Assembly: GCF_004010195.1 (NCBI RefSeq)
Contig: NC_057749.1
Location: 8,185,451 to 8,249,450, forward strand
Direction of reading: 5' to 3'
Length of the DNA stretch: 64,000 bases
From: Chiloscyllium plagiosum
Taxonomy: Eukaryota
This document shows, piece after piece, positions 3,221-63,405 of the stretch. Within the stretch, counting starts at the first letter, position 1; every line of letters begins with the position of its first letter. The position numbers were made by a program, and so were the translations under genes. The notes below the pieces were generated by a model. The model was given only the letters and a program-made list of their open reading frames with translations. It was not told the origin of the DNA and ran no database searches.

Positions 3221-3260
3221 CCAGACGTTTCATTACCTGGCTAGGTAACATCATCAGTGG
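3221..3260 (-). ncRNA. Minimal hammerhead ribozyme motif (PLE-associated)
   Basis: Reverse complement reads cca CTGATGA t gttacc tagcca ggtaat GAAA cgtc tgg. Confidence 0.75.
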
Positions 3261-3914
3261 TGACTGCCAAGTGAAGCAAAGCTGTTGTCTCCTGCTTTCT
3301 ATTTATACGTTTGTCCTGGATGGGGTTCCTGGAGTTTGTGGTGATGTCACTTCCTGTTCGTTTTCTGAGGGGTTGATAGATGGTATCTAGATCTATGTGT
3401 TTGTTTATGGCTTTGTGGTTGGAGTGTCAGGCCTCTAGGAATTCTCTCGCATGTCTTTGCTTAGCCTGTCCCAGGATAGATGTGTTGTCCCAGTCGATGT
3501 GTTGGTTTTTTTCATCCGGGTGTAGGGCTACGAGGGAGAGAGGGTCGTGTCTTTTTATGGCTAGCTGGTGTTCGTGTATTCTGGTGGCTAACTTTCTGCC
3601 TGTTTGTCCCACGTAGTGTTTGTGGCAGTCCTTGCATGGAATTTTGTAGATGACGTTGGTTTTGTCCATGGGTTGTACTGGGTCTTTTAAGTTTGTTAGT
3701 TTTGTTTGAGAGTGTTGGTGGGTTTGTGTGCTACTAGGACTCCGAGGGCACTCCAACCACAACGCCATAAACAAATACATAGATCTAGATACCATCTATC
3801 AACCCCTCAGAAAGCAAACAGGAAATGACATCACCACAAACCCCAGGAACCACATCCAGGACAAACATATAAATAGAAAGCAGGAGACAACAGCTTCACT
3901 TCACTTGGAGATCA

Positions 3915-3954
3915 CCACTGATGATGTTACCTAGCCCGATAATGAAACGTCTGG
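3915..3954 (+). ncRNA. Minimal hammerhead ribozyme motif (PLE-associated)
   Basis: cca CTGATGA tgttacctagcccgataat GAAA cgtc tgg; helix II is weakened by substitution. Confidence 0.65.
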
Positions 3955-4155
3955 ATATCAAACCGACAGCTCAGCGAGCAAACCTCCACTCTAAACCTCA
4001 ACCTGAGCTGCAAACCTTCATAAACGTTGCAACAACCTTGACCATTTCAGGACTGACCAATATAATCTTGACCATTAGAGAATTAACTATTTAAATCTTA
4101 ACAATGTGAGGCACGACCTCTATAATGTCAACCATTACAAGTTTCACCAATAAAA

Positions 4156-4650
4156 TAGAACAAAGAACAAAAGAACAAAGAAAAGTTACAGCCCAGGAAC
4201 AGGCCCTTTGACCCACTAATCCTCAGCCAATCCAAATCCACTGTCTAAACCTGTGGCCCAATTCCTAAGCATCTGTATCCTGCTGCTCACCACCTACTCA
4301 TGCATCTGTCCAGATACACCTTAAATGAATCTACCATGCCTGCCTCTACTACCTCTGCTGGCAACGCGTTCCAGGCACCTACTACTCTCTGTGTAAAGTA
4401 CTTGCCACGTGTGTCCCCCTTAAACTTTTCACCTCTCATCTTGAAAGTGTGACCTCTCGTTATTGAATCCTTCACCCTGGGAAAAAGCTTATTCTATTTA
4501 CCCCGTCTATGTCCTTCATGATTTTGTAGACCTCAATCGGGCCCCCCCTCAATCTCCTTTTTTTTAATGAAAATAATCCTAACCTACTCAACTACTCTTC
4601 ACAGTTAGCACCTTCCATACCAGGCAACATCCTCATAAACCTTCTCTGCA
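4156..4650 (-). mobile_element. CR1 LINE 3' fragment
   Basis: ORF TRGHTFKMRGEKFKGDTRGKYFTQRVVGAWNALP; (ctttgttc)n-like tail. Confidence 0.9.
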
Positions 4651-5171
4651 CTTGACAATTAGTGATTTGGTCATTATAATGCTGACCATTAGAGAATTGA
4701 CTATTATAATTTTGACCACTATAGACTTAGCCATTGAGTTCTTCAACACATGACGCTTGATCATTATAACCTTGACCATTACAAGATTGTTTCTAAAAGA
4801 ATTGGCCATTAAATTCTTACCTATTATAACCTTAAAAATTACAAGTTTAGTTTATACAGTCTTGAACATCATATTCTTGACCATTATAATTTTGGCACAA
4901 CACCTAATTTAAGATAGCTCAGAATAGTTTAATTTAAGGCTGGACCAAAAGTTGTTTTAATAGTCATTGGATCATCTGCAATCTTGGGTGACATTACTAG
5001 CTCATCAGCTTACATTTAACTTTTAGCGCGTTTCGATGAGTAGGAACTTTCATCTTCTTTTGTTGGCTTTTAAGATGTTGAGAAAAGGATTAATGGTAGG
5101 ATAGACACCATTAGTTATAGGTCACTGCTCTCCTGTAAAAGGTTCATGCTCTCTTTCTTCCACTTTTACAG

Positions 5172-5298
5172 CAAATCACGGATGGCTGACTGTCCCAAAA
5201 AGGATGTCAAAGACGAGAGAAATGGAATGGTTAAGAGCATGAAGTCTCCATTTCAGATTGAGGAAACATTAAAAATTAAACCCTACATCCTGGATTAA
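5172..5298 (+). CDS. Candidate terminal exon, unidentified
   Basis: Acceptor ctctttcttccacttttacag; one frame reads KSRMADCPKKDVKDERNGMVKSMKSPFQIEETLKIKPYILD*; no homology recognised. Confidence 0.2.
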
Positions 5299-5814
5299 AT
5301 GTTGTATATATTCAGGGATTGTATTAGTTTTGAAGTAACTGTTCACCACTGTTTGGAATGATGAAGGTGACAAAATTTGGAACAAGTTTGCAAAACGCAG
5401 TACTAAATCTCACCACCTTGTTTGACAAACATCATCCACAAATCTCACTCTGTGCTTTTGATAATACAAGTAGGTTCTATTACCAAGTGGTTGTGACCTT
5501 GATCTGTATTTTCCAATCTCCCATTGACCTCATTTCTAGATGGGGAGGGATGGGTTAGACTTGTCTTGATGAGAATGGTATTAATTTAGGTGATCGCAGG
5601 TACATACAGGAAACCCATGGGAGGACCTGGATTGGCAGAGTTAGATTCTTTTAGTACCATAGAGATCCAGTAAATATAAATGGTGTGCCAAGATTAAGTT
5701 TAACAAGGTGGTGCAATGGGAAGTTTGGTAGCTCTTGCAGTGCAAGAAAGCCTAGGAAAAAGTCCCACCGGATCCTGAGGTGTGTCAACTGAACATGTTT
5801 ATTGAAAATTATAT

Positions 5815-5885
5815 TACAATGGTCAAGATCATAATGGCTATGCCTGTAATGGTCAAACTAATAATAAATGAGTCTGTAATGGTAT
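5815..5885. repeat. The same 15-bp array in inverted orientation
   Basis: caatggtcaagatca taatggctatgcctg taatggtcaaactaa is the reverse complement of ttgaccatta units. Confidence 0.6.
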
Positions 5886-5889
5886 GTCA

Positions 5890-7090: not shown

Positions 7091-7114
7091 TAAAAAATTA
7101 ATGATTGTGCAAGT

Positions 7115-7420: not shown

Positions 7421-8088
7421 TTATTGTAAATACCATTAATTAATTTGGAATTATCCTAAATCTACGGATGAAAATATTTGTGCAGTCACAATGTTTCTCT
7501 GTTGAAATGTCATTCTGCATTGTGTCAAATATCAGGATTTTGCCACATTGGTTAGGCTAAACTCTGTATATAATTCAGTGATTATTTTAGGCACAATCCT
7601 TACTTCTGAGTAGATCCAGCGAAAACAGTCAGTGCAGAGAAAAAAATAATTACTTTCTCTGAATAGGTGACCTAATGAGTCTAGCAAATAAATATCCCTG
7701 AAGGGTAAAGGAAATCAGTACTGAAACAGTCTTCAAAGATTCCTTGTCACTAATTATGGCTCATGACTAAGCATGAAACTGTCTAATTATTGTATGCTGT
7801 AATTCTCACATCTGTCTCAGCAGTTAGAGAGGCAAATTTCACCTGTTAGTTTGCTTTACAAATAATCAGTTGCAAAGCTTCACCCATTCCAGACAGAGTG
7901 TCCCAAAACCAGAGTTTGGTTCCTTCTGGCATAGAAAATAAGAACAGAAGTAGGCCATTCAGCCCTTCGGGTCTGCTCTGCCATTCAATAACTTGACCTC
8001 CTCTCAGGAAATAAGGCAAGGCAGCTGACTGAGGTGTCAGTGGCGGGTGGAGGGGGGGTATCATTGGGGCCTGTTACCATAATTCTAT

Positions 8089-8314
8089 CAACAAACATAT
8101 TGACTTGGATCTCATTTACCACTGAGAAAAAGAAAGAGAAACGACATCACCACAGGAAATAACATCGCCAGCCCAAGGAAGCCTAAACACAGAAATAAAA
8201 AGTGGGCCATACCATCAGTGCTTGACCGAAGGCTCACTGATGATGTTACCTAGTATGGTGATGAAAGGTCTGAAAAACGAACCTTCCAGCTCAACAAGCA
8301 AATTTACATCCAGA
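8089..8314 (+). mobile_element. Penelope-like 3' end inserted in CR1
   Basis: NSINKHIDLD motif shared with 3750-3800; TSD accataattctat at 8076-8088 and 8315-8327. Confidence 0.85.
8234..8273 (+). ncRNA. Minimal hammerhead ribozyme motif
   Basis: tca CTGATGA t gttacc tagtat ggtgat GAAA ggtc tga. Confidence 0.65.
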
Positions 8315-11272
8315 ACCATAATTCTATTAATTTTTAAATAGTGATTGAAAAGGACAGATCATATCTAAAAGGTTTAAGTTCTAAATTGGAGGAAGGCCAA
8401 TTTTGATGGCATTAGGCAAGAACTTTCTAAAGTTAGTTCGAGACGATGTTTGCAGGTGAAGGGATGGCTGGAAAATGGGAAGTCTTCAAAAATGAGATGA
8501 TGAGAGTGGAGTGACAGTATGTTCCTGGGAAGGTGAACAAAAGGCTGGCAGGTATAGGGAATGCTGGATAATGAGAAAAATTGAAGTTTTGGTCAAGAAA
8601 AAGAAGGAAGCATATGTCAGGTATGGGCAACAGAGATTGAGTGAATTCCTAGAAGAATATAAAGGCAGTAGGATTATACTAAAGAGGGATATCAGGAGAC
8701 AAAGGGGGACATGAAATAGTTTTGGCAAATAGGGTTAAGGAAAATCCAAAGGGACTCTGCGAATACATTAAGTACAAAAGGATAACTCAGGACAGAACAG
8801 AGCCACTTAAAGATCAGGAAGCTTGCCTACATGCAGAATGCAGGAGATGGGTGAAATACTAAGTGAGCATTTTGCATTAGTGTTCTGTGGAGAAGGATAT
8901 GGAAAAGACAGAACATGGGGAAATAGATAGTGAAGTCTTCAACAATGTCCATATTACACAGGAGGAGGTATTGGACATCTTAAAATGCATAAAGGTGGAT
9001 AAATCCCCTCAACATGACCGGGTGTACCCCAGAACTCTGTGGGAAGTGAGGGAAGAGATTACTGGCTCCTTGCTGAGATATTTGTATCATTGATACCTGT
9101 AGGTAAGATACTGGAAGGCTGGAAGTTGGCTAATGTGCCACTATTTAAGAAATATGGCAAGGAAAAGCCAGGGAACGGCAGACCAGTGAGCCTGACATCT
9201 GTAATGGGCAAGTTGTTGGAGGGAATCCTGATGGACAGGATTTACATGCATTTGGAAAAGCAAGGACAGTTTCAGGATAGTCAACATGGCTTTGTGTGTG
9301 GAAATACTCTCTCACTAACTTGACTTAGTTTTTTGAAGACGTAGTTAAGAGCATTGATGAGGGCAGCGTGGTGGATGTGATCTATGTGGCCTTCAGTAAG
9401 GCATTTGATAAGGCTCATTATGATAGACTGGTTAACAAGATTTGATCACACGTAATACAGGGCGAATTGCTTTTTGGTTACAGAACTGTCTCAAAGGTGG
9501 AAAAAAGGAGAGTGAGGTGGAGAGTTGCTTTTCAGACTAGAGGCCTATGACCAGTTGTGGGCCACAAGGATTGGTACTAGGTCCACTGCTTTTTGTCATT
9601 TATATAAAGATTTGGATGTGAAAATAGGAGGTATAGTTAGTAAGTTTGTAGATGACACAAAATTGGAGGTGTGGTGGACAGCGAACAAGGTTATTTCAGA
9701 GTACAATGGGATCTTAATCAAATGGGCCAATGGGCCGAAGAGTGGCAGATGGAATTTAATTTAGACAAATGTGAGGTGCTACATTTTGGAAAACAAATCA
9801 GAGCAGGACTTACATACTTAATGGTAAGATCCTGGAAAGAGTTCCTGAACAAAGAGACCTTGGAGTGCAGGTCCATAGTTCTTTGAAAGTAGAGTCTCAG
9901 GTAGATAGAATAATGAAGAAGTCATTTGATCTGCTTGCCCCTATTGGTCAATACATTGAGTACAGGAGCTACAATGTCATTTTGCAGCTGTACAGGACAT
10001 TGGTTTAACCATTTTTAGATTCTTGCATGAAATTCTGGTCTTCCTCCTATAGGGAGGATATTGTCAAACTTCAAAGGGTTCAGAAAAGATTTACAAAGAT
10101 GGAAAGTCTGAGCTATAGGGAGAGGCTGAAAAGGCTAGGGCTATTTTCTCTGGAGCGTCAGAGGGTGAGGAATGACCTTATACAGGTCTATAAAATCTTG
10201 AGGGGCATGGATAGGATAAAGGTCTTTTCCTGGGATGGGGGAGTTCAAAACTAGAAGCATAGGTTTAAGGTGAGAGAGAAAAGATACAAAAGGGACCTAA
10301 GGGGAATTATTTTCATGCAGAGAGTGGCGGGTGTATGGAATGAGCTGCCAGAAGAAGCAGTGGAGACTGGTACAACATTTAAAATACATTGGATGGGTAG
10401 ATGAATAGGAAGGGTTTAGAAGCATATGGGCCAAGTGCTGGCAAATAAGACTAGATTTATACAGGGTATTTGGTCACCATGGACGAGTTGGACCAAAGGG
10501 TCTGTTTCCATGCTATCCATCTCTATGACTCTAATTAACTTCTGAACCATAGAAATGTACTTGTCTCTTAAATGCCCTCTATGCTTGTACCAATTAAGGA
10601 TGGACAATAAATGTTGGTCTTGCTGGCATTCACTGAAAGAATTTTGAAAAATACAGTTGAAAATTATGCTTTGATGTAGCTGTGCAAGTTTATGCTATGC
10701 AGTCCTACCGATTTTGTGGTCTTAGCATTTGGCAAGATGTACAGTCTACCCTCTCAGAGTTGAAGGAATGATTCCTGAATGCTTTGTTCCAACCTACACT
10801 TCATCAGTTTTATCAGGCTTCAGTCATATCATAAGATGCTGAAAATGAGTCAGTCTGATCCATCATCTGTTGATGTATGAAAAGGGAGAGAGGATTCATA
10901 TAGGTCTAAATCAACCACTTGAATCAGCCCTAAACATTCTTTTGCTATCAAAGATCTTATGAAAATTGCAGTTCTGACACATAAGACTCACTTCCCGATG
11001 TTCTGAACCTTGACTACATTTTTCAATTTGCATTGTACAGTTTCAAGTCAACATTTGTTGCATAACTTTACAATGCTAACTTAAATTGCAGGCAGTACAA
11101 ACAAACTTAGCTTGTTTTGAACACTACTTGGGTTTTGAGTGAACTACCATCTGATGGGGTCAAATCTTCAAATTTAGATTCTGTTGTCTCCCAACTTTCT
11201 GTCGGGTATCAGTGTGCTATGGATCTCTCTAGGCATCTGAGTGGAAGTAGCAGCATTCACTAAGGTTAAGAT

Positions 11273-12062: not shown

Positions 12063-12971
12063 ATGAGTCAGTCAGTTACTCAGGGAGAACCATCACAGGC
12101 ACAACCAGAGCAACGGGTTCCAGCATGTGCAGTCTTTCCATTTGCCTTAAGATAGAGGAACAGGAGTGGGCGATTCAGCCCATCAAGTATGCTCTCCCAT
12201 TCACTGAGATCATGACTGATCAGATTTGTTTCGAGAGCAAAGGAAGAATTTTTTTTTTGTAATTTGCCTGATAGCCCAGAGAAGTCAGCTCCTTTGAATG
12301 CCTTGGGTAAGATGTTTAAGTCTCTACTGTCTTCCCTGGGAGTTCTGACAAAGAGATGTTGCCTTGGTTTGTTCCTGTCACATCGACGGAAGCCATCACT
12401 GCACCATCGGCTGGTTATAGTGTTTCTGACTGCGCCATTAGCATTACCAGAAGAATGCTTGCTTTCATTGGTCAGAGCATTGAGTATAGGAGTTGGGATG
12501 TCTTGTTGGAATTGTACAAGACTTTGGTGAGGCCACATTTGGAGTATTATGTGCAGTTTTGGTCACCAAAAGAAAGGATATTACTAAACTAGAAAGAGGG
12601 CAGAAAAGATTTACTAGGATGCTATCTGGTCTGGAGGTTTGAGTTATAAGGAGAGGCTGGATAGACTGGGACTTCTTTCCCAGGAGCAACAGAGACTGAG
12701 GGGCCACTTCAGCTAAGACTATAAAATCATGATAGGCATAAATAAGGCATTTAGCCAACAGCTTTTCCCCAGGGTAGGTGAGTCTAAAGCTAGACAGCAT
12801 AGGTTTAAGGTGAAAAGGGAGAGATCCAGAAGAGTCCAAAGGAGCAATTCTTTCACACAGAGGGTGGCGAGTGTCTGGAATCGGCTGCCAGAGGTAGTGG
12901 TGGATATGAGTGCAATTTTGTCATTTAAGAAACATCTAGACAGGTACATGGATGGGATAGGCATGGAGGGA

Positions 12972-13174
12972 AAAGCACAACAGGTCAGGCAACATCCGAG
13001 GAGCAGGAAAATCGATGTTTCAGGCAAAAGCCCTTCATCAGCACTTCCTGATGAAGGGCTTTTGCCCGAAATGTTGATTTTCCTGCTCCACGGATGCTGC
13101 CTGACCTGCAGTGCTTTTCCAGCACCACTCTAATCTTGACTGTAATCTCCAGCATCTTCAGTCCTCACTTTCTC
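12972..13174 (+). mobile_element. Palindromic non-coding PLE derivative with two inverted hammerheads (family A)
   Basis: Arms about 12969-13041 and 13048-13120 plus a one-sided tail; TSD catggaggga at 12962-12971 and 13175-13184; matches the 3' end of the PLE at 30147-30275. Confidence 0.88.
13045..13078 (+). ncRNA. Minimal hammerhead motif (inverted partner at 13011-13041, minus strand)
   Basis: ttc CTGATGA a gggc tttt gccc GAAA tgtt ga. Confidence 0.7.
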
Positions 13175-19668: not shown

Positions 19669-19894
19669 TCTGTCGCTTAGCTTGCATTGACGTGTTTGAG
19701 AGTGACTGGAAGATTCACTTGCAGTCAATGGAGAACATTCACTCCATCTCTGACATGATATGATATGTTATTAGGAGACCTTACTTTATAAATGGCCAAC
19801 GTTGTGAGCCCAGTTTTGTTCTGCCCCTCATGATCTCCTGTAAATGTTTATTTTGTACCTTCAGCAGAGTATTTGTACTCGATGAGATGACACG

Positions 19895-20485
19895 TATGGT
19901 CTTGTTTACATTGGTGAGACCAAGTGCAGACTTGGTGACAACTTTGCAAAACACCTCCGTTCTGGCCATTAAGAATGACCTTGATCTCCCAGTTGCTTGC
20001 CACTTCAATAAACCACTTTGCTCTCATGCTAACCTTTGTCTCCAGGGCCTGCTACACCATTCCAATGAAGGGCAATGCAAGTTTGAAGGACAATATTTCA
20101 TTTTTCACTTTGGTACTTCACAGGCTCAAGATTTCAGTATTGAATTCTGTAACTTCAAATATTGTATGTATCTGACGTCTCACCCACAATCCTTTCTTGT
20201 GTTTCTTTCTGACCTTGCATGCTTTCAGTACAGAGTTCAAAATCCCACCCTTCTGCACTTTAATGTACACTCATTTTACATCTTTTTCTCTTTGTCCACC
20301 ATTAGCATCCCCTTCGTCTTTTGCACAGAGCCTTTGCCTGTGTCTAAAGTTCTTGCAAAAATGTTTTCCAACTCCTTCCCCTGCTGAAGAAGTCATAATG
20401 GATTTGAAATGTTAACTCTGTTTTGCTTTCCACAGATGCTGCCAGACCTGCTGAGTTTCTCCAGCATTCTCTGTTTGTTTGTTTG
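19895..20485 (+). mobile_element. Decayed Penelope-like element 3' end (GIY-YIG plus 3' UTR; parent of family C)
   Basis: GLVYIGETKCRLGDNFAKHL / DLPVACHFN...FIFHFGT; degenerate hammerhead CTGAAGA...GAAAtgttaac at 20381-20416. Confidence 0.8.
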
Positions 20486-22216: not shown

Positions 22217-22422
22217 TAAAGGCAAAATGCTGCTGATGCTGTAAATCTGAGACAAACATAGAGAATGTTGGAGAAATGCAGCAGGTCTGGCAGCATTGAC
22301 GGAGTAAAAAAAATCAGAGTTAAAAATCTGATAGAACTCTCTTTCAATAGTAAACTAATCATACCAGACACGAAATGTAAACTCTGTTTTTCTGTCTCCA
22401 CAAATGCTGCCAGACCTGCTGG
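22217..22422 (-). mobile_element. Palindromic PLE derivative (family C), old
   Basis: cagcaggtctggcagcatt ... aatgctgccagacctgctg inverted arms. Confidence 0.7.
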
Positions 22423-22486
22423 GCAATATTGATAAATATTGTCTTGTTAAAGGAATACCTGTTTTGCTATCCTGTGCCATATTCCA

Positions 22487-24329: not shown

Positions 24330-24430
24330 AGCTTCTGTGAAGAGGGGGGTCGCTGGATCCAAACCATCAACTTTGCTTTCTCTCCACAGATGCTGCCCAA
24401 TCTGCTGAGTTTCTCCAGGAATTTCTGTTT
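24330..24430 (+). mobile_element. PLE family C 3' end remnant
   Basis: ctctccacagatgctgcccaatctgctgagtttctccagg; decayed hammerhead upstream. Confidence 0.65.
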
Positions 24431-27538: not shown

Positions 27539-27723
27539 CAAATAAAAACTGAGAGAACTTGTGGATGCTGTAAATCAGAAGCAAAAACAGAAATTGCTGG
27601 AAAAGCTCAGCAGGTCTGGCAGCTTCTGTGGAGGGGACACTGGACCTGAAATATTAACTCTGATTTCTCTCCACAGAAGCTGCCAGACCTGCTGAGCTTT
27701 TCCAGCAATTGCTGTTTTTGTGT
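27539..27723 (-). mobile_element. Palindromic PLE derivative (family C) inserted in a Rex/Babar 3' UTR
   Basis: Arms aattgctggaaaagctcagcaggtctggcagcttctgtggag and its reverse complement; TSD cagtgaaaa(g/a)tat at 27526-27538 and 27724-27736. Confidence 0.85.
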
Positions 27724-30146: not shown

Positions 30147-32620
30147 GGAGAAAGTGAGGACTGCAGATATTGGAGATCAGAGTCAAGAGTGTGTTGCTGG
30201 GAAAGCACAGCAGGTTAGGCAGCGTCCGAGAAGCAGGGGAATCGATGCTTCAGGCATAAGCCCTTCATCAGGAATGAGGCTTGTGGGCCATGGCTGAGAG
30301 ATAAATAAGAGGGGGTGTGGGGGGAGGCTGGGGAGGAAAGTAGCTGAGAAAGCGATAGGTGGATGAAGGCGAGGAAGAAGGTGATAGATCAGGGGGGAGT
30401 GATGGTCAGGTCCAGAGGGTGCCAGTTGGAGTCTTGGGCCTGGAATAATGTGGGGAGAGGGGAAATGAGGAAGCTGTTGAAATCCACATTTATCTCATGT
30501 AGTTGCAGAGTCCCAAAGCAGAATATCAGGTGTTCTTCCTCCAGGCGTCTGGTTGTGACGGTTTGCCAGTGGAGGAGGCCCAGGACCTGCATGTCCTTGA
30601 TGGAGTGGGAAGGGGAGTTGAAGTGTTCAGCCATGGGGTGGTGGGGTTGGTGTGTGCGGGTGTCCCAGAGACGTTCTCTGAAATGATCAGCAAGAAGGCG
30701 TCCTGTCTCCCCGATGTAGAGGAGACAACATCGGGTGCAATGGATGCAGTAGATGACGTTGGTAGAGGTACAGGTAAATTTCTGACAGATGTGGAAGGAT
30801 CACTTGGGGGATTGGATGGAGATGAGGGGGGAGGTGTGGGTGCAGGGTTTGCACTTCCTGTGATGGCAGGGAAAGGTGTCAGGAGTGGGGTATGGTCTGG
30901 TGGGGGGCATGGACCTGAGAAGGGAGTCGCAGAGGAAATGGTTTCTCTGGAACGCTGATAGGGGTACGGACAGAAATATATCTTTGGTGGTGGGGTCCAT
31001 TTGGAGGTGGCAGAAGTGATGGAGGATGATGCAATGTATGCGGAGGTTGGTGGAATAGAAGGTGAGGACCAGGGGTGTTCTATCCTTGTTGCATTGGGAG
31101 GGGTGGGTTTCAAGGGTGGTGATGCAGGAAGTGGAGGAGATGCGCTGGAGGGCATTGTCAACCATGTGGGAAGGGAAGTTGTGATCATGGAAGAAGGAGG
31201 CCATCTGGGACTTACTGAGGTGGAATTGGTCATCCTGGAAACAGATGCAGTGGAGGTGGAGGAATTGGGAAAAAGGGATGGCATTTTTACAAGAGGTAGG
31301 GTGGGAGGAGGTGTAGTCTAGGGCTGTGGGCTGTGGGTTTGTAGTAGATGTCTGTGGCTAGCCAGTCGCCGGAGTCGGTGATGGAGAGGTCCAGGAAGGA
31401 GAGGGAGTAGTCCGAGATGGTCCAGGTGAAACTGAGGTCAGGGTGAAAGGTGTTTGCGATGTTGATGAACTGTTCAAGCTTCTCGTGGGAGCACAAGGTG
31501 GCGTCAATACAGTCATTGATGTAGTGGAGGAACAGGTGGGGGGTGGTGCCGGTGTAACTGCGGAAGATGGACTGTTCCACATACCCGACAAAGAGGCAAG
31601 CATAGCTGGGTCCCATGTGGGTGCCCATGGCTACTCCTTTGGTTTGGAGGAAGTGGGAGGATTGGAAAGAGAATACGTTCAGGGTGAGGACCAGTTCAAC
31701 CAGGCGGATGAGGGTGTCAGTGGAAGGGTATTGGTTGGGACCGCGTGAGAGGAAGAGATGGAGGGCTTGAGACCTTCATCATGGCAGATCAATGTGTGTA
31801 GGGACTGGATGTCAATGGTGAAGATGAGGCATTAGGGACCGGGGAACGAAAGTCTTGAAGGAGGTGAAGGGCACGGGTGGAGTCACGAACGTAGGTGGGG
31901 AGTTCCTGGACTAAGGGGGACAGGACGGTGTCAAGATAGGAAGAAATGCATTCAGTGGGACAGATGCAGGCTGAGAGAATGGATCGACCGAGGCAGTCAG
32001 GTTTGTGAATCTTCAGTAGTAGGTAGAATCGGACAGTACAGGGTTCACAGACAATGAAGTTGGAGGCTGCGGGTGGGCAATCCCCAGAGGTGATGAGGTT
32101 GTGGATGGTCTGGAAGATGATAGTTTCCTGATGGGAGGCGAGGTCGTGATCAAGGGGGCAATAGAAGGAGGTCATTGCGCCACACTACTACTGCAACCCC
32201 CTTGTCTACGGGTTTGATGGCGAGGTTGGGGTTGGAGTGGAGGGAGTGGAGGCCTGCACACTGTGAGGACGAGAGGTTGAGGGGGGTGGACAGGTTGAGG
32301 CAGCCGATGTCACAGTGGCAGTTAGAAATGAAGAGGTCAAGGGCGGGTAACAGGCCAGCACTGGGTGTCTAGGTAGATAGGGTGTGTTGGAGGCGGGAGA
32401 AGGGGTCCTTGGTGGGTGGACGGGTGTCCTGGTTGAAAACGTGGGCCCTGAGGTGGAGGCAGTGGAAGAAACATTCAAGCTCGCAGCGTGTGTCAAACCC
32501 ATTAATCTGGGAGCATAGAAGGGTAAAGGTGAGGCCTTTGCTGAGGACTAAAAATTTGTCCTCAGTGAGGGGGAGGTCTGGGGAATGGTGATCACTCGGC
32601 AGCAATGGGAGCTATGACCT
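30147..32620 (-). pseudogene. Penelope-like retroelement relic: RT, Cys-rich linker, GIY-YIG endonuclease, 3' UTR with hammerhead
   Basis: RFYLLLKIHKPD..GRSILS, MGTHMGPSYACLFVGYVE, FLHYINDCI, LSFLDLSI, PCHHRKCKPC, LLYIGETGR, AEHFNSPSHSIKDM..RRLEEEHLIFCFGTLQ; many frameshifts; hammerhead-like motif at 30241-30274. Confidence 0.92.
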
Positions 32621-36324: not shown

Positions 36325-37505
36325 CAGCTGTTTAGAGGGCTAGTGAGGCCACACATGGAGTATCTGGTCGGCATGGACAGGTTGGACCGAAGGGTCTGTT
36401 TCCATGCTGTACATCTCTATTACTCTATGACTCTACTGTGTACAGTTTTGGTCTCCTTACTTGAGAAAGGACATACTGGTGTTGGAGGGGTGTAGAGGAG
36501 GTTCACAAGGTTGATTCCGGAGTTGAGAAGGTTGACTTATGAGGAAAGATTGAGTAATCTGTAGGAGGTAGAGAGATAGAAGCTTATAGAATAATAAGGG
36601 GGATCCATAGGGTTAATGTTAGGTGCCTTTTGGGGGTTGGGGGGGTTTCAAGACTAGGGGGTGCATTTTTAAGGTGAGAGGGGAGAGATTTTAAAAAGGC
36701 ATGAGGGGCAAGTATTTTACAGAGGGTAGTTCGTGTGTGGAATGAGCTTTGTGAGGAAGTGATGGATGTAGGTGCAGTTATAGTGTTTAAAATTTGGATA
36801 AGTACATGAGTAGGAAATGTTTGGAGGGATTTGAGCCAGGAGCAGGGATTTCATTCAGGATTATGTTCGGCATGGACTGGTTGGACCAAAGGGTCTGTTT
36901 TATAACTCTATGCTTCTATACTTATCGGAATTTAGATGAATGAGGGGAGATTCTTACAGAAACAAATAAATTAGATAGGAAAATAGGTAAGATAGAAGCA
37001 GGGAGGTTATTTCCAATGGCGGGTGAAACTAGAACTGGGGGACATAGCCTCATAATAAAGGAGAGCGGATTTCTGACTGAGTTGAGGAGGAATGTCTTCA
37101 CCCAGAGGGTTGTGAATCTGTGGAATTCCCTGCCCAGTGAAGCAATCGAGGCTACCTCATTGACTGTTTTTAAAACAAAGATAGATAGATTTTTGAACAG
37201 GAAGGAATGAAGGGTAATGGTGAGCAGGCAGGTAAGTGGAGTCCAGAGCATGGTGCTGGAAAAGCACAGCACGTCTGGCAGCAACCGAGGAACAGGAGAA
37301 AACATCAATTCTCCTGCTCCTTGGATGCTGCCTGACCTGCTGTGGTTTTCCAGCACCACTCTCCCAACTCTCATCTCCAGCATCTGCAGTCCTCGCTTTC
37401 GCCAGGTGGGTAAGTGGAGCTGAGTACACAAAATGATCCGCCATGATCTTATTGAATAGCAGGCTCAATGGGCCAGATGCCTACTCTTGCTCCTTGTTCT
37501 TATGT
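36325..37505 (+). mobile_element. Nested cluster of CR1 fragments
   Basis: LVRPHMEY..CVQFWSP, TGGHSL..RRNVFTQRVVNLWNSLP; separate 3' ends near 36433, 36918 and 37505. Confidence 0.85.
37242..37402 (+). mobile_element. Palindromic PLE derivative (family A), hammerhead centre missing
   Basis: tggtgctggaaaagcacagca / tgctgtggttttccagcacca arms; imperfect TSD cagg(ca/tg)ggtaagtggag at 37225-37241 and 37403-37419. Confidence 0.85.
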
Positions 37506-38947: not shown

Positions 38948-39115
38948 TGTGTAGAGGTGCCAGTGTATGACAGAAGTGGACAAAGTCAGAAGACATACAA
39001 AGGCAGGTTATAGTGCAACAGGTTTATTTGAAATCACAAGCTTTCAGAGCGCTGCTCCTTGATCGGGTGACGTGACTTGGTGAACCTGTTGCGCTATAAC
39101 CTTGTGACTTCTGAC
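38948..39115 (-). mobile_element. Palindromic PLE-type element (family B)
   Basis: Homologous to 48423-48627; TSD agcttccaa at 38939-38947 and 39116-39124; decayed hammerhead at 39035-39069. Confidence 0.8.
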
Positions 39116-48268: not shown

Positions 48269-48422
48269 GTCCTTAACCTCATAGCTGGACTCTATTGATC
48301 TGTCCTTGTCTGTTCAGAGTGCCATTTCTCTTGCAGCTTTCTCAACCGTGGAATAATGTCCATCTGCTCCTTCATCTCCATGAGCAATCTGCAAAATGTC
48401 ACCAGGCTAGTTTGAATTGACA

Positions 48423-48627
48423 CAGTCAGAAGTCACATGACACCAGGTTATAGTCCAACAGGTTTACTTGGAATGACAAGCTTTTAGAGCGCTGCTCTTT
48501 CCTTCACCTGACGAAGGAATCGCGTTCTGGAAGCTTATGATTTCAAATAAACTTGTTGGACTATAACCTGGTGTCATGTGACTTCTGACTTTGTCCACCC
48601 CAGTCCAACACAGGCACCTCCATATCA
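48423..48627 (+). mobile_element. Palindromic PLE-type element (family B) with a hammerhead-like centre
   Basis: Perfect 37-bp inverted arms (agtcagaagtcacatgacaccaggttatagtccaaca), 37-nt one-sided tail, TSD ttgaattgaca at 48412-48422 and 48628-48638. Confidence 0.88.
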
Positions 48628-51378: not shown

Positions 51379-51392
51379 GCCTCCTTTATTGT

Positions 51393-52962: not shown

Positions 52963-53513
52963 GTTGTTGTGGTTCTGTTCGCCGAGTTGGAAGGTTTTGT
53001 TGCAAACGTTTCGTCCCCTGGCTAGGCGACATCATCAGTGCTTGGGAGCCTCCTGCGAAGCGCTTCTTTGATGTTTCCTCCGGTGTTTATAGTGGTCTGT
53101 CCCTGCCGCTTCCGGTTGAAGACAGGAAGGCAGCTAACAATCCGCATACATGAACATCAACTAGCCACGAAACGACACGACCAGCTATCCTTAGTAGCCA
53201 CACACGCAGACAACAAGCAACACGAATTCGACTGGGACAACACTACTATCATAGAGCAAGCCAGACAGAGAACAGCCAGGAAATTCCTAGAGGCATGGCA
53301 TCCACCCACAAACTCCCTCAACAAACACATCGACCTGGACCCAATATACCAACCACTACAGCGGACAGCTGAAACTGACAACCGGAAGCGGCAGGGACAG
53401 ACCACTATAAACACCGGAGGAAACATCAAAGAAGCGCTTCGCAGGAGGCTCCCAAGCACTGATGATGTCGCCTAGCCAGGGGACGAAAAGTTTGCAACAA
53501 AAACTTCCAGCTC
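52963..53513. mobile_element. Young Penelope-like element end with an inverted terminus
   Basis: TGRQLTIRIHEHQLATKRHD..FDWDNTTII..FLEAWH..LNKHIDLDPIY; arms about 52984-53118 and 53379-53513 are nearly perfect inverted repeats. Confidence 0.9.
53002..53041 (-). ncRNA. Minimal hammerhead ribozyme motif (partner at 53456-53495, plus strand)
   Basis: Reverse complement reads gca CTGATGA t gtcgcc tagcca ggggac GAAA cgtt tgc. Confidence 0.75.
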
Positions 53514-53625
53514 NNNNNNNNNNNNNNNNNNNNNNNNNNNNNNNNNNNNNNNNNNNNNNNNNNNNNNNNNNNNNNNNNNNNNNNNNNNNNNNNNNNNNNN
53601 NNNNNNNNNNNNNNNNNNNNNNNNN
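53514..53625. other. Assembly gap (112 N)
   Basis: Run of N. Confidence 1.
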
Positions 53626-56339: not shown

Positions 56340-56620
56340 TTTCCTATCCTCCAGATGTACTATCTTCCATTTCTTTATCTTCCTAACTATCCTTCTCTCT
56401 CTCTGGGCTCCTTCTCCATCTATTCACAGACTCCTTCACTCCCATTCCCCCCTTTTCCGAACTACTATCAGTTCTGTAGAAGGTTCATAGAACTAGAAGT
56501 TCTGCAGAACTCAAAATGTTAACTCTGTTTCTTTTCCGCTGGATGCTGCCAGACTTGCTGAGTTTCTCCAACCATTACTGTTTTAGTTTCAGATTTCCAG
56601 CATCCACAGTTCTTTGTTTA
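56340..56620 (+). mobile_element. PLE family C 3' UTR remnant
   Basis: Pyrimidine-rich tract, then aaatgttaactctg...gatgctgccagacttgctgag as in 20400-20480. Confidence 0.65.
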
Positions 56621-60201: not shown

Positions 60202-60667
60202 GTAAGTTGAAGTTAAGAATTGAACATTGAACTTTGAACGGCAGCTTGGTTTTAAGAGGAGAGAACAAAAGACTGATGATAACTATTGTGAACTGGCTTG
60301 GTAAGATAATGCAGGTTAATCTAAGGATACTGCAGTCATTTTAACACCAAGATGTCACTATGCTCAGGGACTGGCAGCGAGTTGGATGTGAAATTGGTCA
60401 ATTGGTGCTAGCCAACAAACCACAGAGAATGCTGACAACTGACACAGATTGGGGTTGTGGGTAGGAGACAAGACGCAGTTTCATTTTAGAAATAGTTTAT
60501 CTGTACTCCGCAAAAGTTGCATTCTCAATTTTTTCAAAAAAATTATCTTTGCTTAACTTATAAACTTGATGTCTAAGGTTTGCCATTTGTAAAGTCTGAT
60601 TAGGAACAATTTAGCAATTTTGAGGGTCATTGAATGTTCTACCTTCACTGCATTGTCATTTTCCACA

Positions 60668-61173
60668 GAAAGCATTCTATCCAGATGCAGTAATGACCTG
60701 GTACTGCAACTGCACTGCCCAGGGCCGTCAGAAACTACAGAAAGTTGTGTGCACAGTCCAGGCCATCACTGAAGCCAACCTCCCATCCATGGAGTCCATT
60801 TACACTTCTCATTGCCACAGAAAGGCTGCCAACATCATCAATGACCCCTCACACCCCAGTAATGCTCTCTTCCAACCTCTTCCATTGGGCAAAAGATACA
60901 GAAGCTTGAACACACGGAGCAACAGGTTCAAGAACAGCTTCTTCCCCACTGTTATTAGACTGCTGAATGGACCTCTCCAATTTCAAGTAACGTTGACCTT
61001 GTGAAGGTTGATCTTGCTTTGTGCACCTCCTGTGCAGCCATAATCATGTATGGCTCACTCTCTCTAAGCCCCCCATGATTTGTAAGTCCTTGTTTACAAT
61101 GATCTGCTGGTAGTGCTCGCAAAACGAAGCTTTTCACTGTACTAAGGTACACATGACTACAATAAATCAAATC
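60668..61173 (+). mobile_element. Rex1/Babar-type LINE 3' end
   Basis: MTWYCNCTAQGRQKLQKVV..RKAANIINDPSHP..LPLGKRYRSL..RFKNSFFPTVIRLLN; (aaatc)n tail. Confidence 0.85.
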
Positions 61174-61306
61174 AAGATTCCAGTGATAGCGAGGCTGATT
61201 GCGTTTGGCTTGCTTAACCCTGTGTCATCACACTATCCATACCTCCAGGACTACAACATGCAAATTAAAGCATGTATTTCCAGAACTATCTGGACATTAG
61301 GTAGAG

Positions 61307-61518
61307 GTGAAAACAAGGATTGCAGATGCCAGAAACCAAATCCTAGATGAGAGTGGTGCTGGAAAAGCACAACAGTTCAGGCAGCATCCGAGGAGCAGGG
61401 AAATTGATGTTTCGGGCAAAAGCCCTTCATCAGGAATTCATCAGAACCGTCGATTTTCCTGCTCCTCGGATGCTGCCTGAACTGTTGTGCTTTTCCAGCA
61501 CCACTCTAATCCAGAACC
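61307..61518 (-). mobile_element. Palindromic PLE derivative (family A)
   Basis: Near-perfect arms of about 60 bp; hammerhead at 61403-61436 (minus); TSD acattaggtagag at 61294-61306 and 61519-61531. Confidence 0.9.
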
Positions 61519-62754
61519 ACATTAGGTAGAGACCCAGCCATCTGAAAAGTCTGGATCAAATTGGTGCCATCAATATTGGGCATGATCCCCATTTTGACTG
61601 GAGTATATTTGGGATCTGCTTCCTTTTCTGACTTTGGTAGAGGTCACAATGCTGTGGGTCAGACTGGCATTGCGCCAAAGAAGAAGAACTTTGTATGTGT
61701 GACATGCTTGTATACTTGTCTCGACTTCTACAAAAGAAAAACAGTTTAACAACATTATTTTATTGATTTTCCTCTGAAGTTGATATCCTGCACATATAAT
61801 TTAATGGATAATACTGAGCATTAACCTGAGCAGTGTAAAGTTCCAATGGATCTCAGCCACTTGGTCCAATGTTTCATGCTGAATGATACCCTTCTTAATA
61901 AAACACTCTGAAATAATTCATTCCCGTTCAGTTACAGAAATTAATTATAGAATTGTAAATCTAATCTGCCAAATGAGCAGTTTCAAATTGCAGCCTGTGG
62001 CAATACTAAAGCCAAGTACAGTTCAGGAAACAGTCTCAGCGACACACGTTCATTGCAACTGTGTGCAGTCCAGTCACATTACATGGTCAATTTTATGAGC
62101 ACCATTCACCAATGTCTTTAGTCTAAGATTCTAGTCATAATTATGGTATTAACTGATGTTGTGAAATCTTATCAAAGATAACAAGGGTGTGATTAAAATA
62201 TAGGCCAGCAAAGCTTGGAAAATCTCTGCCAATATGAAAGCATTACTCAGCATCTACAGAACAGAGATAGCCATTCAATCCAAATGGTCCAACCTGGTGT
62301 TTAAGTCCCCCTTGTCCCATGAAGTTCCTCACTTTCTTTCTTCCTCTCACCCTATCAACATGTCTTCCTATCCATTTCTCTGTAAATTTTTTTTATCCAG
62401 CTATCTGCCCTTAAGTATGTCTACGCTATCCAATACCCTTTGTTTCAGTGTTCCACAGAAGATCGGTGGGGGGGGGGTTGGATATGTTGCCTTGGAACAC
62501 CAATAAAAGTGTACTCAGTGATGAATTAAGATGCAGTCACTTTACTTGGATAAGAATAAGGGAAGAGGAAAGAGCTCAAAAGACATCAAGGAAGAGATTG
62601 GCCAGGATCTGATTGAATGGAGGAGCAGGTTTGAAGGGCCGACTGGCCTCCTTCTGCCCCTAGTTTGAAGTCCTTCATAGGATGGTGTCACAATTTAAAT
62701 CTTGCAAAAGTGAGGGAGTTAAATCTAACAACTCTGGAAAAGTTAACAGTGCAA

Positions 62755-63405
62755 AGGCTGGAATACTGCATAAATAACTTACCTCCCAATTCCCCAAAAC
62801 TAGTCCACCATCACAAGTCAGGTGTATGATGCTATATCACCCACTTGCTCCATATCATCCTGAACAATGCAGCCTGCTTTGTTCTGAGGAAGGGTCACTG
62901 GACCCGAAACATTAACTCTGATTTCTCTTCACAGATGCTGCCAGACCTGCTGAGTTTTTCCAGCAACTTCTGTTCATGAAAGTAGCTTGCTTGATTGGCA
63001 CCACATTCACAAGCATCCATTCCCTCCATCACCAATGCTCAGTAGCAGCTGTGTGCCCTACTACAAGATGCACTGCAGAAATTCACCAAAGATCCTTCAA
63101 TAGCACCTTCCAAACCCACGACCACTTCCATCTCAAAGGACAAGGGAAGCAGATACATGGAAAGGCCATCACCTGGAAGTTCCACTCCCAGCCATTCACC
63201 ATCTTGAACTGGAAATATATTACCACTCCTTCATTGTCATTGGTTCAAAATCCTAGAGTTCCCTCTCTAGAAACACTGTAGGTCTACCTACAGTACATGG
63301 ACTGCAGCAATTCAAGAAGGCAGCTCATCACCATCTTCTCAAGGACAATTAGGGATGGGCAATAAATGCTGGCCCAGGTGGAGCCACCCACTCCACTCTG
63401 TGAGT
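62755..63405 (+). mobile_element. LINE-B 3' fragment interrupted by a PLE family C end (62881-62975)
   Basis: ACLIGTTFTSIHSLHHQCSVAAVC; tail ggacaattagggatgggcaataaatgctggcc. Confidence 0.82.
62881..62916 (+). ncRNA. Minimal hammerhead ribozyme motif (family C)
   Basis: gtt CTGAGGA a gggtc actg gaccc GAAA catt aac. Confidence 0.7.

What the first reader, a model, noticed from the sequence alone, without database searches (positions are those of the whole stretch)
3221..62916. About a dozen minimal hammerhead ribozyme motifs from several Penelope-like families, with co-varying stems
Seen: one architecture recurs, namely short helix I, CUGANGA, one extra base, helix II, GAAA, a self-complementary tetramer and a UH site. 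Copies lie at 3221-3260(-), 3915-3954(+), 8234-8273(+), 13011-13041(-), 13045-13078(+), 30241-30274(-), 53002-53041(-), 53456-53495(+), 61403-61436(-) and 62881-62916(+), with decayed ones at 20381, 39035 and 48505. Helix I changes in a compensatory way: cca/tgg, tca/tga, gca/tgc, gtt/aac, cac/gtg. Helix II differs between families yet still pairs: gttacc/ggtaat, gggc/gccc, gggtc/gaccc. Helix III is only the palindrome ACGU or AGCU. Established: Penelope-like elements carry minimal hammerheads lacking a stable helix III that cleave as dimers. Inference: this genome holds a diverse and very abundant set of them; novelty would lie in the families, not the concept.
Basis: partly seen in the sequence, partly recalled or inferred. 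Interest (0 to 1): 0.75.

Follow-up and report, generated by a model that had tools for sequence, protein, structure and literature searches.

The report
Penelope retroelement hammerhead ribozyme relics
The recurring motifs are real minimal hammerhead ribozymes sitting in the tail ends of Penelope-like jumping genes that litter this shark-type genome, a kind of element already described, and most copies here are worn or truncated.

Summary
They are far beyond chance. A strict descriptor gives 3 window hits and 0 in 100 shuffles. Four literal family patterns give about 199,000 genome matches and 0 for reversed controls.

They are loop-less type-I hammerheads with a palindromic helix III (ACGU or AGCU), as described for Penelope-like elements (PLEs) by Cervera and de la Pena 2014. 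RT-like and GIY-YIG-like reading frames lie just upstream on the same strand for families A, B and C. Family D has no such frame within 1.5 kb.

Stems covary: 77.7% of cells are paired against 57.4% when shuffled, 0 of 500 shuffles as high. Only 2 of 10 window copies pass a strict intactness test, mostly because the CpG in ACGU has decayed.

Copies are 5'-truncated tail ends, and 26 of 56 lie in head-to-head pairs with 3' ends outward. No window copy is in direct tandem, so none can form a dimer in cis. RNA reads show sense transcripts of family A but no ends at the cut site.

This is a known kind with new family members. The scan found the same thing in at least eight other windows of this genome.

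The parts
3169..3182 (.). Target-site duplication AACCTTGACCATTT, left copy, inside a 15-nt-period minisatellite
   Evidence: identical 14-mer at 3169-3182 and 4034-4047..
3183..3748 (-). Family A PLE copy, 5'-truncated, short 3' end. The GIY-YIG-like frame lies in 3430-3795(-).
   Evidence: inverted arms 3180-3426 / 3749-3995, 92%; Pfam GIY-YIG E=0.0023, below the curated cut-off.
3221..3260 (-). Family A minimal hammerhead, intact by the strict test. Helix I is 3 bp, helix II 7 bp with G10.1-U11.1, helix III ACGU, C17.
   Evidence: (36.1 bits).
3749..4033 (+). Family A copy, head-to-head partner. It has a long 3' end, about 38 nt beyond the partner's end (3996-4033).
3915..3954 (+). Family A hammerhead. 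The core is intact but helix II is weakened to 4 contiguous pairs.
4034..4047 (.). Target-site duplication, right copy
8234..8273 (+). Family A variant (helix I tca/tga). Helix III has decayed to AGGU.
   Evidence: (27 bits).
12969..13043 (-). Family B tail end with hammerhead 13011-13041, left arm of a head-to-head pair. Helix III reads ACAU and the helix I 5' strand is lost at the junction.
13044..13174 (+). Family B tail end with hammerhead 13045-13078, right arm with a long 3' end. Helix III reads AUGU.
19764..20467 (+). Family C copy. The frame 19764-20384 resembles by eye the C-terminal part of the family B GIY-YIG frame. A decayed hammerhead and tail follow at 20382-20467.
   Evidence: (repeat family D13).
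22228..22424 (.). Head-to-head pair of tail fragments without the hammerhead core (22228-22304 minus, 22372-22424 plus)
24360..24421 (+). Family C tail fragment
27558..27708 (.). Family C head-to-head pair, decayed (27558-27635 minus, 27626-27708 plus)
   Evidence: Sub-threshold mir-216-like Rfam hit.
30148..30276 (-). Family B hammerhead (30241-30274; GAAA mutated to GAAG, helix III ACAU) plus a long tail
30392..30799 (-). GIY-YIG-like frame of the family B PLE, directly upstream of the hammerhead
   Evidence: Atlas score 0.93-0.94; 21 of 30 hits are in GIY-YIG clusters. No Pfam hit at E<=1.
31290..31775 (-). Reverse-transcriptase-like frame of the same family B PLE
   Evidence: RVT_1 E=0.15, weak; Atlas 0.95-0.97, RVT_1 / HTH_animal clusters; 38 relatives; some carry PF00078 + PF26215 + PF01541.
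37226..37400 (.). Head-to-head pair of family B tails truncated within or after the hammerhead
   Evidence: (mir-like hits caused by the hairpin).
38955..39070 (-). Family D copy, decayed (core CCGAUCA)
   Evidence: (I25).
48420..48619 (.). Family D head-to-head pair, decayed (GGAA in place of GAAA in the plus arm)
   Evidence: (E=0.95).
52984..53513 (.). Family A'' head-to-head pair with 135-nt arms, 98% complementary. Hammerheads lie at 53002-53041(-) (ACGU, U17, helix II with one G-G mismatch) and 53456-53495(+) (AAGU). The right side is cut by the run of N at 53514-53625.
   Evidence: (I16).
56538..56613 (+). Family C tail fragment with a hammerhead remnant just upstream (about 56495)
61308..61506 (.). 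Family B head-to-head pair. The minus arm 61308-61438 carries hammerhead 61403-61436 (ACAU). The plus arm 61443-61506 is truncated inside the hammerhead.
62882..62967 (+). Family C hammerhead (62881-62916, helix III ACAU) plus tail

Best explanation
What they are. These are minimal type-I hammerhead ribozymes (min-HHRs) carried in the short non-coding stretch after the RT/GIY-YIG reading frame of endonuclease-positive Penelope-like retrotransposons. The genome is 3.56 Gb and shark-like.

Inferred role in the active element (from published PLE work):
- The element is transcribed from tandem copies.
- Two hammerheads pair through the four-letter palindrome to make a shared helix III. They cut after H17, probably with help from the element's own protein.
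- The reverse transcriptase starts inside the RNA at one of two sites about 55 or about 90 nt (family B1), or about 40 or about 80 nt (family A), downstream of the hammerhead. It then copies towards the 5' end.

What the window holds (shown). It holds the products of that copying: 5'-truncated tail ends, 40-130 nt of tail plus all or part of the hammerhead, rarely reaching the reading frame. About half are head-to-head pairs with both 3' ends pointing outward, flanked by a target duplication.

How the pairs arise (inferred). This is what priming of reverse transcription from both strands of a staggered cut would leave.

Activity here. These copies are dead on arrival. Most have since lost the CpG of the ACGU palindrome. 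None lies in a direct tandem, so ribozyme action at these loci is unlikely.
For: Motif.
- CUGANGA is invariant in 25 of 25 seed copies.
- The extra base after A9, the G10.1 pair, GAAA, the palindromic 15.2-16.2 without a loop, and U-H are all present in intact copies.

Covariation (37 distinct rows).
- 77.7% of cells are paired, against 57.4 +/- 1.9 in shuffles (0 of 500 as high) and 22-49% when partners are slid.
- 7 of 8 pairs change on both sides. Helix II is 90.5% paired.

PLE context.
- Family A: GIY-YIG-like frame 3430-3795(-) just before hammerhead 3260-3221 (E=0.0023).
- Family B: RT-like frame 31290-31775(-), then GIY-YIG-like frame 30392-30799(-), then the hammerhead at 30274-30241(-).
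- Relatives in elasmobranch proteomes carry RVT_1 + HTH_animal, and GIY-YIG in P0022 and P0030.

Insertion anatomy.
- 14-nt target duplications flank the window's A pair and L034.
- In both pairs, one arm has the short 3' end and the other an end 37-41 nt longer. This matches the optional 30-40 bp 'tail' and the two RT start sites of PAc (PMC11167929, main text).

Orientation of close pairs.
- 13 (-,+) against 2 (+,-) among 56 tails.
- 13 against 0 among 100 listed B1 copies.
- 7 against 0 among 100 listed A copies.
- PAc cuts and extends both DNA strands in vitro.

Expression. 196 raw single-cell RNA reads at >=92% identity lie on the A pair, with opposite strand bias on the two arms. That is the pattern expected of sense transcripts of family A.
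Against: Self-cleavage was not shown.
- No pile-up of RNA ends at the predicted cut site. Depth over the hammerhead is about 20 reads, and a poly-A single-cell library suits this test poorly.
- No excess of copy 5' ends at the cut site: 3 of 56 lie within 3 nt, and about 3.4 would be expected if the 19 internally truncated copies were spread evenly.

Weak protein evidence.
- Pfam support is below the curated cut-offs: GIY-YIG 18.6 bits against 22.6, and RVT_1 E=0.15.
- PDB sequence searches gave nothing useful.
- No full-length tandem PLE was recovered. The one candidate, L029, proved to be separate insertions.

Other limits.
- Family D has no PLE-like frame within 1.5 kb upstream in 5 of 5 copies tested.
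- The consensus of the commonest families (B, B2) has only 2 contiguous helix I pairs, and family A has G-U at 10.1-11.1.
- 5' ends are not spread as simple random truncation predicts. They pile up at the 5' edge of the hammerhead.
- The covariation alignment was fitted to the model and its rows are kin.
Confidence: 0.88

Rival explanations
1. Most copies are not truncated PLEs. They are members of short non-autonomous retroposons, about 95-135 nt long: a hammerhead at the head and an RT-recognition tail behind it. These would be solo-pLTR or retrozyme-monomer-like units copied in trans by the PLE enzyme. The discrete 5' end would be the 5' end of a short RNA, for example a transcription start just before helix I.
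For: - Of 37 B/C copies with a whole hammerhead, about 10 have unrelated DNA right at its 5' edge. Another 13 meet an inverted partner there.
- In 8 of 13 B1 pairs the two cores are only 4-18 nt apart.
- In family D, 8 of 9 copies other than the query start within about 10 nt of the hammerhead's 5' edge, and there is no PLE frame nearby.
- One locus (L030) holds a direct tandem of a 224-nt unit with a hammerhead, like a non-LTR retrozyme.
- A 2026 preprint derives animal retrozymes from PLE pLTRs.
Against: - At least 8 B-type copies continue upstream in register with each other, and some run into the GIY-YIG frame.
- 19 of 56 tails are truncated at scattered points inside or after the hammerhead.
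- The sample is small: 285 kb plus two lists of 100.
- The tandem in L030 is 100% identical and abuts a run of N, so it may be an assembly effect.
- The two readings are not exclusive.
Confidence: 0.35
2. The motif is kept not for self-cleavage but as a structured RNA signal that the PLE protein binds near its internal start site for reverse transcription. Cleavage would be incidental or rare.
For: - Published PLE hammerheads cleave poorly in vitro, and the authors note that other functions cannot be ruled out (PMC4209133).
- The anole element's hammerhead cuts only with protein present, and its mutants insert normally (PMC11167929).
- Here the hammerhead and tail travel together as the invariant 3' module, even when unrelated sequence lies upstream. 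L033, L035 and L036 share a 5' flank but not a 3' flank.
- No RNA or copy ends pile up at the cut site.
Against: - All catalytic core letters, which are not needed for mere pairing, are conserved across families with unrelated flanks.
- The helix III palindrome makes sense only for a dimeric ribozyme.
- The tests for cleavage here had low power.
Confidence: 0.2
3. The matches are chance look-alikes of a short degenerate motif.
For: Two of 17 relaxed-descriptor hits in random DNA were evident false positives.
Against: - 0 hits in 100 shuffles.
- 0 matches of the reversed patterns against about 199,000 forward matches.
- Model E-values go down to 5e-12.
- The motifs sit at a fixed place in repeat families.
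Confidence: 0.01

Closest known systems
Minimal hammerheads (min-HHR) in the pLTRs of metazoan Penelope-like elements (Cervera and de la Pena 2014, PMC4209133; Lunse, Weinberg and Breaker 2017, recalled and seen only as a citation in PMC6765202)
   Same: - No helix III loop and a palindromic 15.2-16.2.
- An extra base between A9 and 10.1, and a short helix I.
- Consensus families full of compensatory changes.
- Most motifs occur singly in truncated copies.
- 'Dual' motifs lie 100-700 bp apart on opposite strands.
   Different: - The families are new sequences from a cartilaginous fish. The library search for hammerhead ribozyme + Penelope + shark found only a review that uses 'shark' for the motif's shape.
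- Density is far higher: about 130 model hits per Mb and about 199,000 literal matches. The 2014 paper called about 4,000 (coelacanth) and about 9,000 (Xenopus) remarkable.
- Helix II is 4-5 bp in families B, C and D, where Schistosoma has 7-8.
- Family A has G-U at 10.1-11.1.
Poseidon element PAc of the green anole (Frangieh et al. 2024, PMC11167929)
   Same: - Two alternative 3' ends 30-40 nt apart (the 'tail').
- Both DNA strands are used, which fits head-to-head pairs.
- One target duplication here ends in ATTT, and PAc prefers ATT.
- No RNA-seq ends at the hammerhead cut site.
   Different: - In PAc the reading frame starts inside the hammerhead. Here only the position of the hammerhead after the preceding frame's end was seen.
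- No biochemistry exists for the shark elements.
Non-LTR retrozymes of animals (Cervera and de la Pena 2020, PMC7229834; Li, Clavereau and Pollet 2026 preprint)
   Same: - Short non-coding units with a type-I hammerhead that needs a dimer.
- Derived from PLE pLTRs.
- One 224-nt direct tandem was seen (L030).
   Different: - Retrozymes are defined by tandem arrays and circular RNAs. The copies in the window are single or inverted, not tandem.
- No circular RNA was looked for.
Rfam Hammerhead_1 (RF00163), the canonical type-I hammerhead
   Same: The catalytic core letters and the type-I topology.
   Different: No match even at E<=10. Helix III, its loop and the loop-loop contacts are absent.

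Membership tests
Minimal hammerhead of PLEs (min-HHR) | Core boxes CUGANGA and GAAA | tested here: met
   CUGANGA is invariant in 25 of 25 seeds. Among model hits, the core or GAAA is mutated in 1 of 10 window copies and 5 of 26 random copies.
Minimal hammerhead of PLEs (min-HHR) | One unpaired base between A9 and 10.1 | tested here: met
   It is U in family A and A in families B, B1, B2, C and D.
Minimal hammerhead of PLEs (min-HHR) | G10.1-C11.1 closing helix II | tested here: met
   Columns 16-33 read GC in 21 rows, GU in 15 and other in 1, out of 37 distinct rows. The GU rows are family A and CpG-decayed B copies.
Minimal hammerhead of PLEs (min-HHR) | No helix III loop; 15.1-16.1 plus a palindromic 15.2-16.2 (ACGU/AGCU), so that two copies can share a helix III | tested here: met
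   This holds in every intact copy. It is broken in 7 of 10 window copies.
Minimal hammerhead of PLEs (min-HHR) | Helices I and II kept by compensatory change | tested here: met
   7 of 8 pairs change on both sides, and the covariation score is 0.566 against 0.238 shuffled (0 of 500 as high). Caveats: the rows are kin, the alignment was fitted to the model, and family D rows are one column off.
Minimal hammerhead of PLEs (min-HHR) | Self-cleavage after H17, as a dimer | not testable with these tools
   Indirect looks found nothing: no RNA ends at the site (low depth) and no excess of copy 5' ends there (n=56).
Endonuclease-positive Penelope-like element | One frame with a reverse transcriptase followed by a C-terminal GIY-YIG endonuclease | tested here: inconclusive
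   - Order on one strand in family B: RT-like frame 31290-31775, GIY-YIG-like frame 30392-30799, hammerhead 30274.
- Atlas scores are 0.93-0.97.
- Relatives carry PF00078 + PF26215 + PF01541.
- The frames here are broken, Pfam scores are below cut-off, and no RT tree was made.
Endonuclease-positive Penelope-like element | Hammerhead in the repeat (pLTR) that flanks the frame in direct tandem | tested here: not met
   This applies to the copies examined, not to the family. No direct pLTR-ORF-pLTR unit lies in the window, and candidate L029 was two separate insertions. The copies seen are 3' fragments.
Endonuclease-positive Penelope-like element | Optional 30-40 bp 3' 'tail', inverted 5'-truncated partner, target-site duplication | tested here: met
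   - Window A pair: 14-nt duplication, with 3' ends about 38-41 nt apart.
- L034: 14-nt duplication, with 3' ends about 37 nt apart.
- Head-to-head pairs outnumber tail-to-tail pairs 13 to 2.
Non-LTR retrozyme | Head-to-tail arrays of short hammerhead-bearing units | tested here: not met
   There are none in the window. One 224-nt tandem lies elsewhere (L030), beside a run of N.
Rfam Hammerhead_1/3/II/HH9/HH10 | Score at or above the family's gathering threshold | tested here: not met
   No hammerhead hit at gathering level or at E<=10.

The most novel reading that the evidence does not exclude
The unit copied most often in this genome may not be a randomly truncated PLE. It may be a discrete module that starts at the 5' edge of the hammerhead and ends at one of two fixed RT start sites.

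Any RNA that ends in this module seems to get copied, including whole head-to-head hairpins:
- L033, L035 and L036 share the same >=95-nt 5' flank but have different 3' flanks.
- L032 has the same centre as L033 in other surroundings.

A hairpin of two modules offers a competent 3' end whichever strand is transcribed. It would therefore be a strand-symmetric non-autonomous retroposon with the ribozyme at its apex. That could explain a hammerhead load of roughly 0.3-0.7 million copies (about 130 per Mb). This is far denser than the 126,247 reported for the 28 Gb axolotl genome (PMC7229834).
Probability: 0.25. Interest if true: 0.5.

Novelty: new member of a known kind. Interest (0 to 1): 0.27.

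Why it matters
The catch adds cartilaginous-fish families to a ribozyme class whose role in vivo is still unproven.

It also shows how heavily one vertebrate genome can be seeded with catalytic-RNA motifs. Literal patterns give on the order of 200,000 matches. Extrapolating the covariance-model hits from 200 kb of random sample gives perhaps 0.3-0.7 million.

The thousands of young, near-identical copies have exact 5' and 3' ends and target duplications. They are a natural record of how the PLE enzyme starts and stops, and could be mined genome-wide to test the two-strand priming and internal-initiation model, which so far rests on one lizard element in vitro.

For annotation, the head-to-head pairs mimic microRNA precursors in Rfam searches and abut assembly gaps.

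Tried and rejected
Rfam. Gathering and E<=10 scans gave no hammerhead family. The only hits were sub-threshold microRNA-like ones on the hairpins at 13011-13080, 27594-27708, 37255-37354 and 61363-61493.

Fossil record of cleavage. I asked whether copy 5' ends pile up at the cut site.
- A BLAST with one decayed copy seemed to show a pile-up at the hammerhead's 5' edge. Part of this was an artefact of subfamily divergence, because several copies do continue upstream.
- With a profile, 3 of 56 tails start within 3 nt of the cut site, which is no excess.

Wider sampling of tails.
- A DNA search by reference found nothing, because very common words are skipped.

Full-length element. L029, two same-strand A motifs 3.75 kb apart, turned out to be separate insertions around unrelated DNA.

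Proteins. PDB sequence searches with the RT-like and GIY-YIG-like frames gave nothing meaningful.

Family D. tblastn with A/B frames and four database relatives found nothing within 1.5 kb upstream of 5 copies.

Sequencing runs.
- No RNA holder was listed for the stretch.
- Run X22 laid no reads.
- The contigs of X1 and X2 are short pieces of uncertain molecule type and were not used.

Literature. Lunse et al. 2017 is not held.

Full report
Reading the 13 listed sites on the stated strands shows the described layout at each: a 3-4 bp helix I, CUGANGA, one extra base, helix II, GAAA, four letters, then H.

The copies fall into families.
- **Family A** (3221-, 3915+) has helix I cca/tgg and a 7-bp helix II. 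Its variants are 8234+ (tca/tga) and 53002-/53456+ (gca/tgc, helix II gucgcc/ggggac).
- **Family B** (13011-, 13045+, 30241-, 61403-) has helix II gggc/gccc.
- **Family C** (62881+, with decayed copies at 20382, 24342, 27629 and 56495) has gggtc/gaccc.
- **Family D** (decayed at 39035- and 48505+) has cac/gtg, ggagc/gcucc and the palindrome AGCU. I saw D intact only in other parts of the genome.

**The motifs are not chance.**
- A strict descriptor finds 3 window hits and none in 100 Markov shuffles.
- Literal family patterns match the 3.56 Gb genome 5,998 (A, <=3 mismatches), 165,864 (B, <=3), 8,464 (C, <=3) and 19,075 (B1, <=2) times. The reversed pattern matches 0 times in every case.
- The B and C patterns were written with their CpG sites as CG, so they are not verbatim window sequence.
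- A covariance model built from 25 copies finds 10 window hits and 26 hits in 200 kb of arbitrarily placed genome at E<=0.001.
- That is about 130 per Mb, or roughly 0.3-0.7 million copies if the sample is fair (Poisson range on 26).
- Rfam has no matching family at any threshold, as expected for a hammerhead without helix III.

**The stems covary.** On 37 distinct rows, 77.7% of cells form standard pairs. Shuffles give 57.4 +/- 1.9 (0 of 500 reach the observed value), and sliding the partners gives 22-49%. Seven of the eight pairs change on both sides. Helix II is 90.5% paired and helix I 64.9%.

Three caveats apply: the rows are kin, the alignment was fitted to the model, and family D rows sit one column off. 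In effect the evidence is a handful of clean between-family swaps. Position 10.3-11.3 reads U-A, C-G, G-C or A-U. Position 10.4-11.4 reads A-U, C-G, U-A or G-C. The third helix I pair in family A reads C-G, U-A or G-C.

**The context is Penelope-like.**
- Directly upstream of hammerhead 3260-3221(-) lies a frame with the GIY...YVG signature (3430-3795(-); Pfam GIY-YIG E=0.0023, below the cut-off).
- Family B at 30.1-31.8 kb(-) shows an RT-like frame, then a GIY-YIG-like frame, then the hammerhead and tail.
- The protein atlas places the two family B frames among GIY-YIG clusters (0.93-0.94) and RVT_1/HTH_animal clusters (0.95-0.97).
- The RT-like frame has 38 relatives. The best are unnamed elasmobranch proteins at 64-80% identity, and some carry PF00078, PF26215 and PF01541 together.
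- Family C has a frame resembling the C-terminal part of the B endonuclease just before 20382.
- Family D has nothing PLE-like within 1.5 kb upstream in 5 of 5 copies. Its link to PLEs rests on architecture alone.
- The RVT_1 hit at 33346-33990(-) belongs to a different, LINE-type element.

**Anatomy of an insertion.** The A pair in the window is a single insertion bounded by a 14-nt duplication, AACCTTGACCATTT (3169-3182 and 4034-4047), inside a 15-nt-period minisatellite.
- It consists of a minus-strand copy (3183-3748) and a plus-strand copy (3749-4033), head to head.
- Their 3' ends differ by about 38-41 nt.
- A young B1 pair elsewhere (L034) has the same plan: a 14-nt duplication, one short end and one end 37 nt longer.
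- This matches the optional 30-40 bp 'tail', the two internal RT start sites and the cutting and extension of both DNA strands shown for the anole element PAc (PMC11167929, main text).

**Orientation is strongly biased.** Close pairs run (-,+) 13 times and (+,-) twice among 56 B/C tails in 285 kb. They run 13 to 0 among the first 100 exact B1 matches and 7 to 0 among the first 100 A matches. Three of the 13 B1 pairs share a flank and so are not independent. Cervera and de la Pena already noted 'dual' motifs 100-700 bp apart on opposite strands.

**State of the copies.**
- By a strict test (whole core, helix II >=4 bp, palindromic helix III, U16.1, H17 not G, helix I >=3 bp), 2 of 10 window hits and 8 of 26 random hits are intact.
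- The commonest defect in the window is ACGU turned into ACAU or AUGU, the signature of CpG decay.
- Two family consensus forms fail the test by design: B/B2 has only two contiguous helix I pairs, and A'' has a G-G mismatch in helix II. Both lie within the variation published for PLE hammerheads.
- No two window copies lie in direct tandem, so a cis dimer cannot form from a local transcript. In a head-to-head pair the second motif is antisense, and the RNA would fold into a long hairpin instead.

**Expression and cleavage.** One raw-read RNA run (single-cell, poly-A) gave 196 reads at >=92% identity on 3160-4040.
- Strand bias is opposite on the two arms, as expected of sense transcripts of family A.
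- Most reads come from other, longer copies: 164 lie only partly on the stretch.
- Reads cross the hammerhead, and no position shows a pile-up of ends.
- Depth and library type make this a weak test. Frangieh et al. likewise saw no RNA-seq ends at the cut site.

**Where copies begin.** Among 56 B/C tails, 37 include the whole hammerhead and 19 start at scattered points within or after it. Seven of those 19 start at the 3' foot of helix II.
- Of the 37, about 14 run on upstream.
- About 10 meet unrelated DNA within a few bases of helix I.
- 13 meet an inverted partner there.
- In 8 of 13 B1 pairs the two cores are 4-18 nt apart.
- In family D, 8 of 9 copies other than the query start at the hammerhead's 5' edge.

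So 5' ends cluster at the edge of the ribozyme. Plain truncation does not predict this. A short RNA starting there, or a preferred stop or template switch, would. I could not tell these apart.

**Hairpins copied as units.** Four B1 pairs with 218-223 nt between cores fall into two junction types.
- L033, L035 and L036 share at least 95 nt of identical left flank but have unrelated right flanks after the fixed 3' end.
- L032 has the same centre as L033 in other surroundings.
- This suggests that some hairpins, with sequence upstream of them, are themselves retro-copied from the hammerhead-tail module.
- One locus (L030) holds a 224-nt direct tandem with hammerheads, retrozyme-like. The tandem is 100% identical and lies beside a run of N, so it may be an assembly effect.

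**What is known.**
- Minimal hammerheads in all PLEs, their consensus families with covariation, the extra base, the palindromic helix III, and dimer-dependent, weak or protein-assisted cleavage are in print (PMC4209133, whole text; PMC6765202 and PMC6155905, passages; PMC11167929, main text).
- PLE expansion in a shark genome is noted in whale-shark genome papers (passages).
- Retrozymes as PLE derivatives, with one chondrichthyan sampled, are in a 2026 preprint (abstract and results). Its supplements are closed and may list such families.
- A library search for hammerhead ribozyme + Penelope + shark found only a review that uses 'shark' for the motif's shape.
- Lunse et al. 2017 could not be read. 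Its counts may bear on the abundance comparison.
- The scan has reported the same elements in at least eight other windows of this genome, with the same verdict.

**Verdict.** This is a correct catch of a known kind, with new family members. The abundance and the non-random 5' ends and hairpin units are the only parts that go beyond the literature I could read, and they rest on small samples.

Noticed in passing
window 3082-3177, 4037-4162, 4651-4900: A minisatellite with a 15-nt period (units like CTTGACCATTATAAC) surrounds the family A insertion, and the 14-nt target duplication is one of its units.
   Followed up: partly
window 33346-33990 (-): A reverse-transcriptase frame of a different, LINE-type element (Pfam RVT_1 E=7e-13) lies next to the family B PLE. 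It is not part of it.
   Followed up: partly
window 13011-13080, 27594-27708, 37255-37354, 61363-61493: The head-to-head pairs give sub-threshold microRNA-precursor hits in Rfam (for example MIR1861 37.9 bits, mir-577 35.2 bits). This is a likely source of false miRNA calls.
   Followed up: no
window 53514-53625: A run of 112 N abuts the right arm of a 98%-identical inverted pair. L014, L030 and L031 also show runs of N next to such pairs.
   Followed up: no
L030 (G000:C1:16162650-16163650): Three same-strand B1 hammerhead units lie here. Two form a 224-nt direct tandem at 100% identity, which is retrozyme-like, but the tandem ends in a run of N.
   Followed up: partly
L033, L035, L036, L032 (G000:C1, four loci): Head-to-head B1 pairs recur with identical junctions. 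Three share at least 95 nt of left flank but differ on the right, as if retro-copied as one unit. The central loop is inverted between the two junction types.
   Followed up: partly
window 30279-30330 (-); L019 about 5630-5670; L014 about 8060-8095: About 20 nt upstream of the family B hammerhead lies a conserved pyrimidine run ending in CAG (ttatctctcag). It looks like a 3' splice site. In Drosophila virilis Penelope an intron ends at helix I.
   Followed up: no
window 184-263, 10462-10541, 36356-36435, 53942-54021 and others: Several other interspersed repeat families (repeat finder D1, D3-D11) fill the window, with 4-8 copies each. They are unrelated to the hammerhead elements.
   Followed up: no
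runs X1-X14: Contigs from runs labelled as four different organisms hold about 15% of the words of window 3000-4200. Family A may therefore be shared among related species.
   Followed up: no
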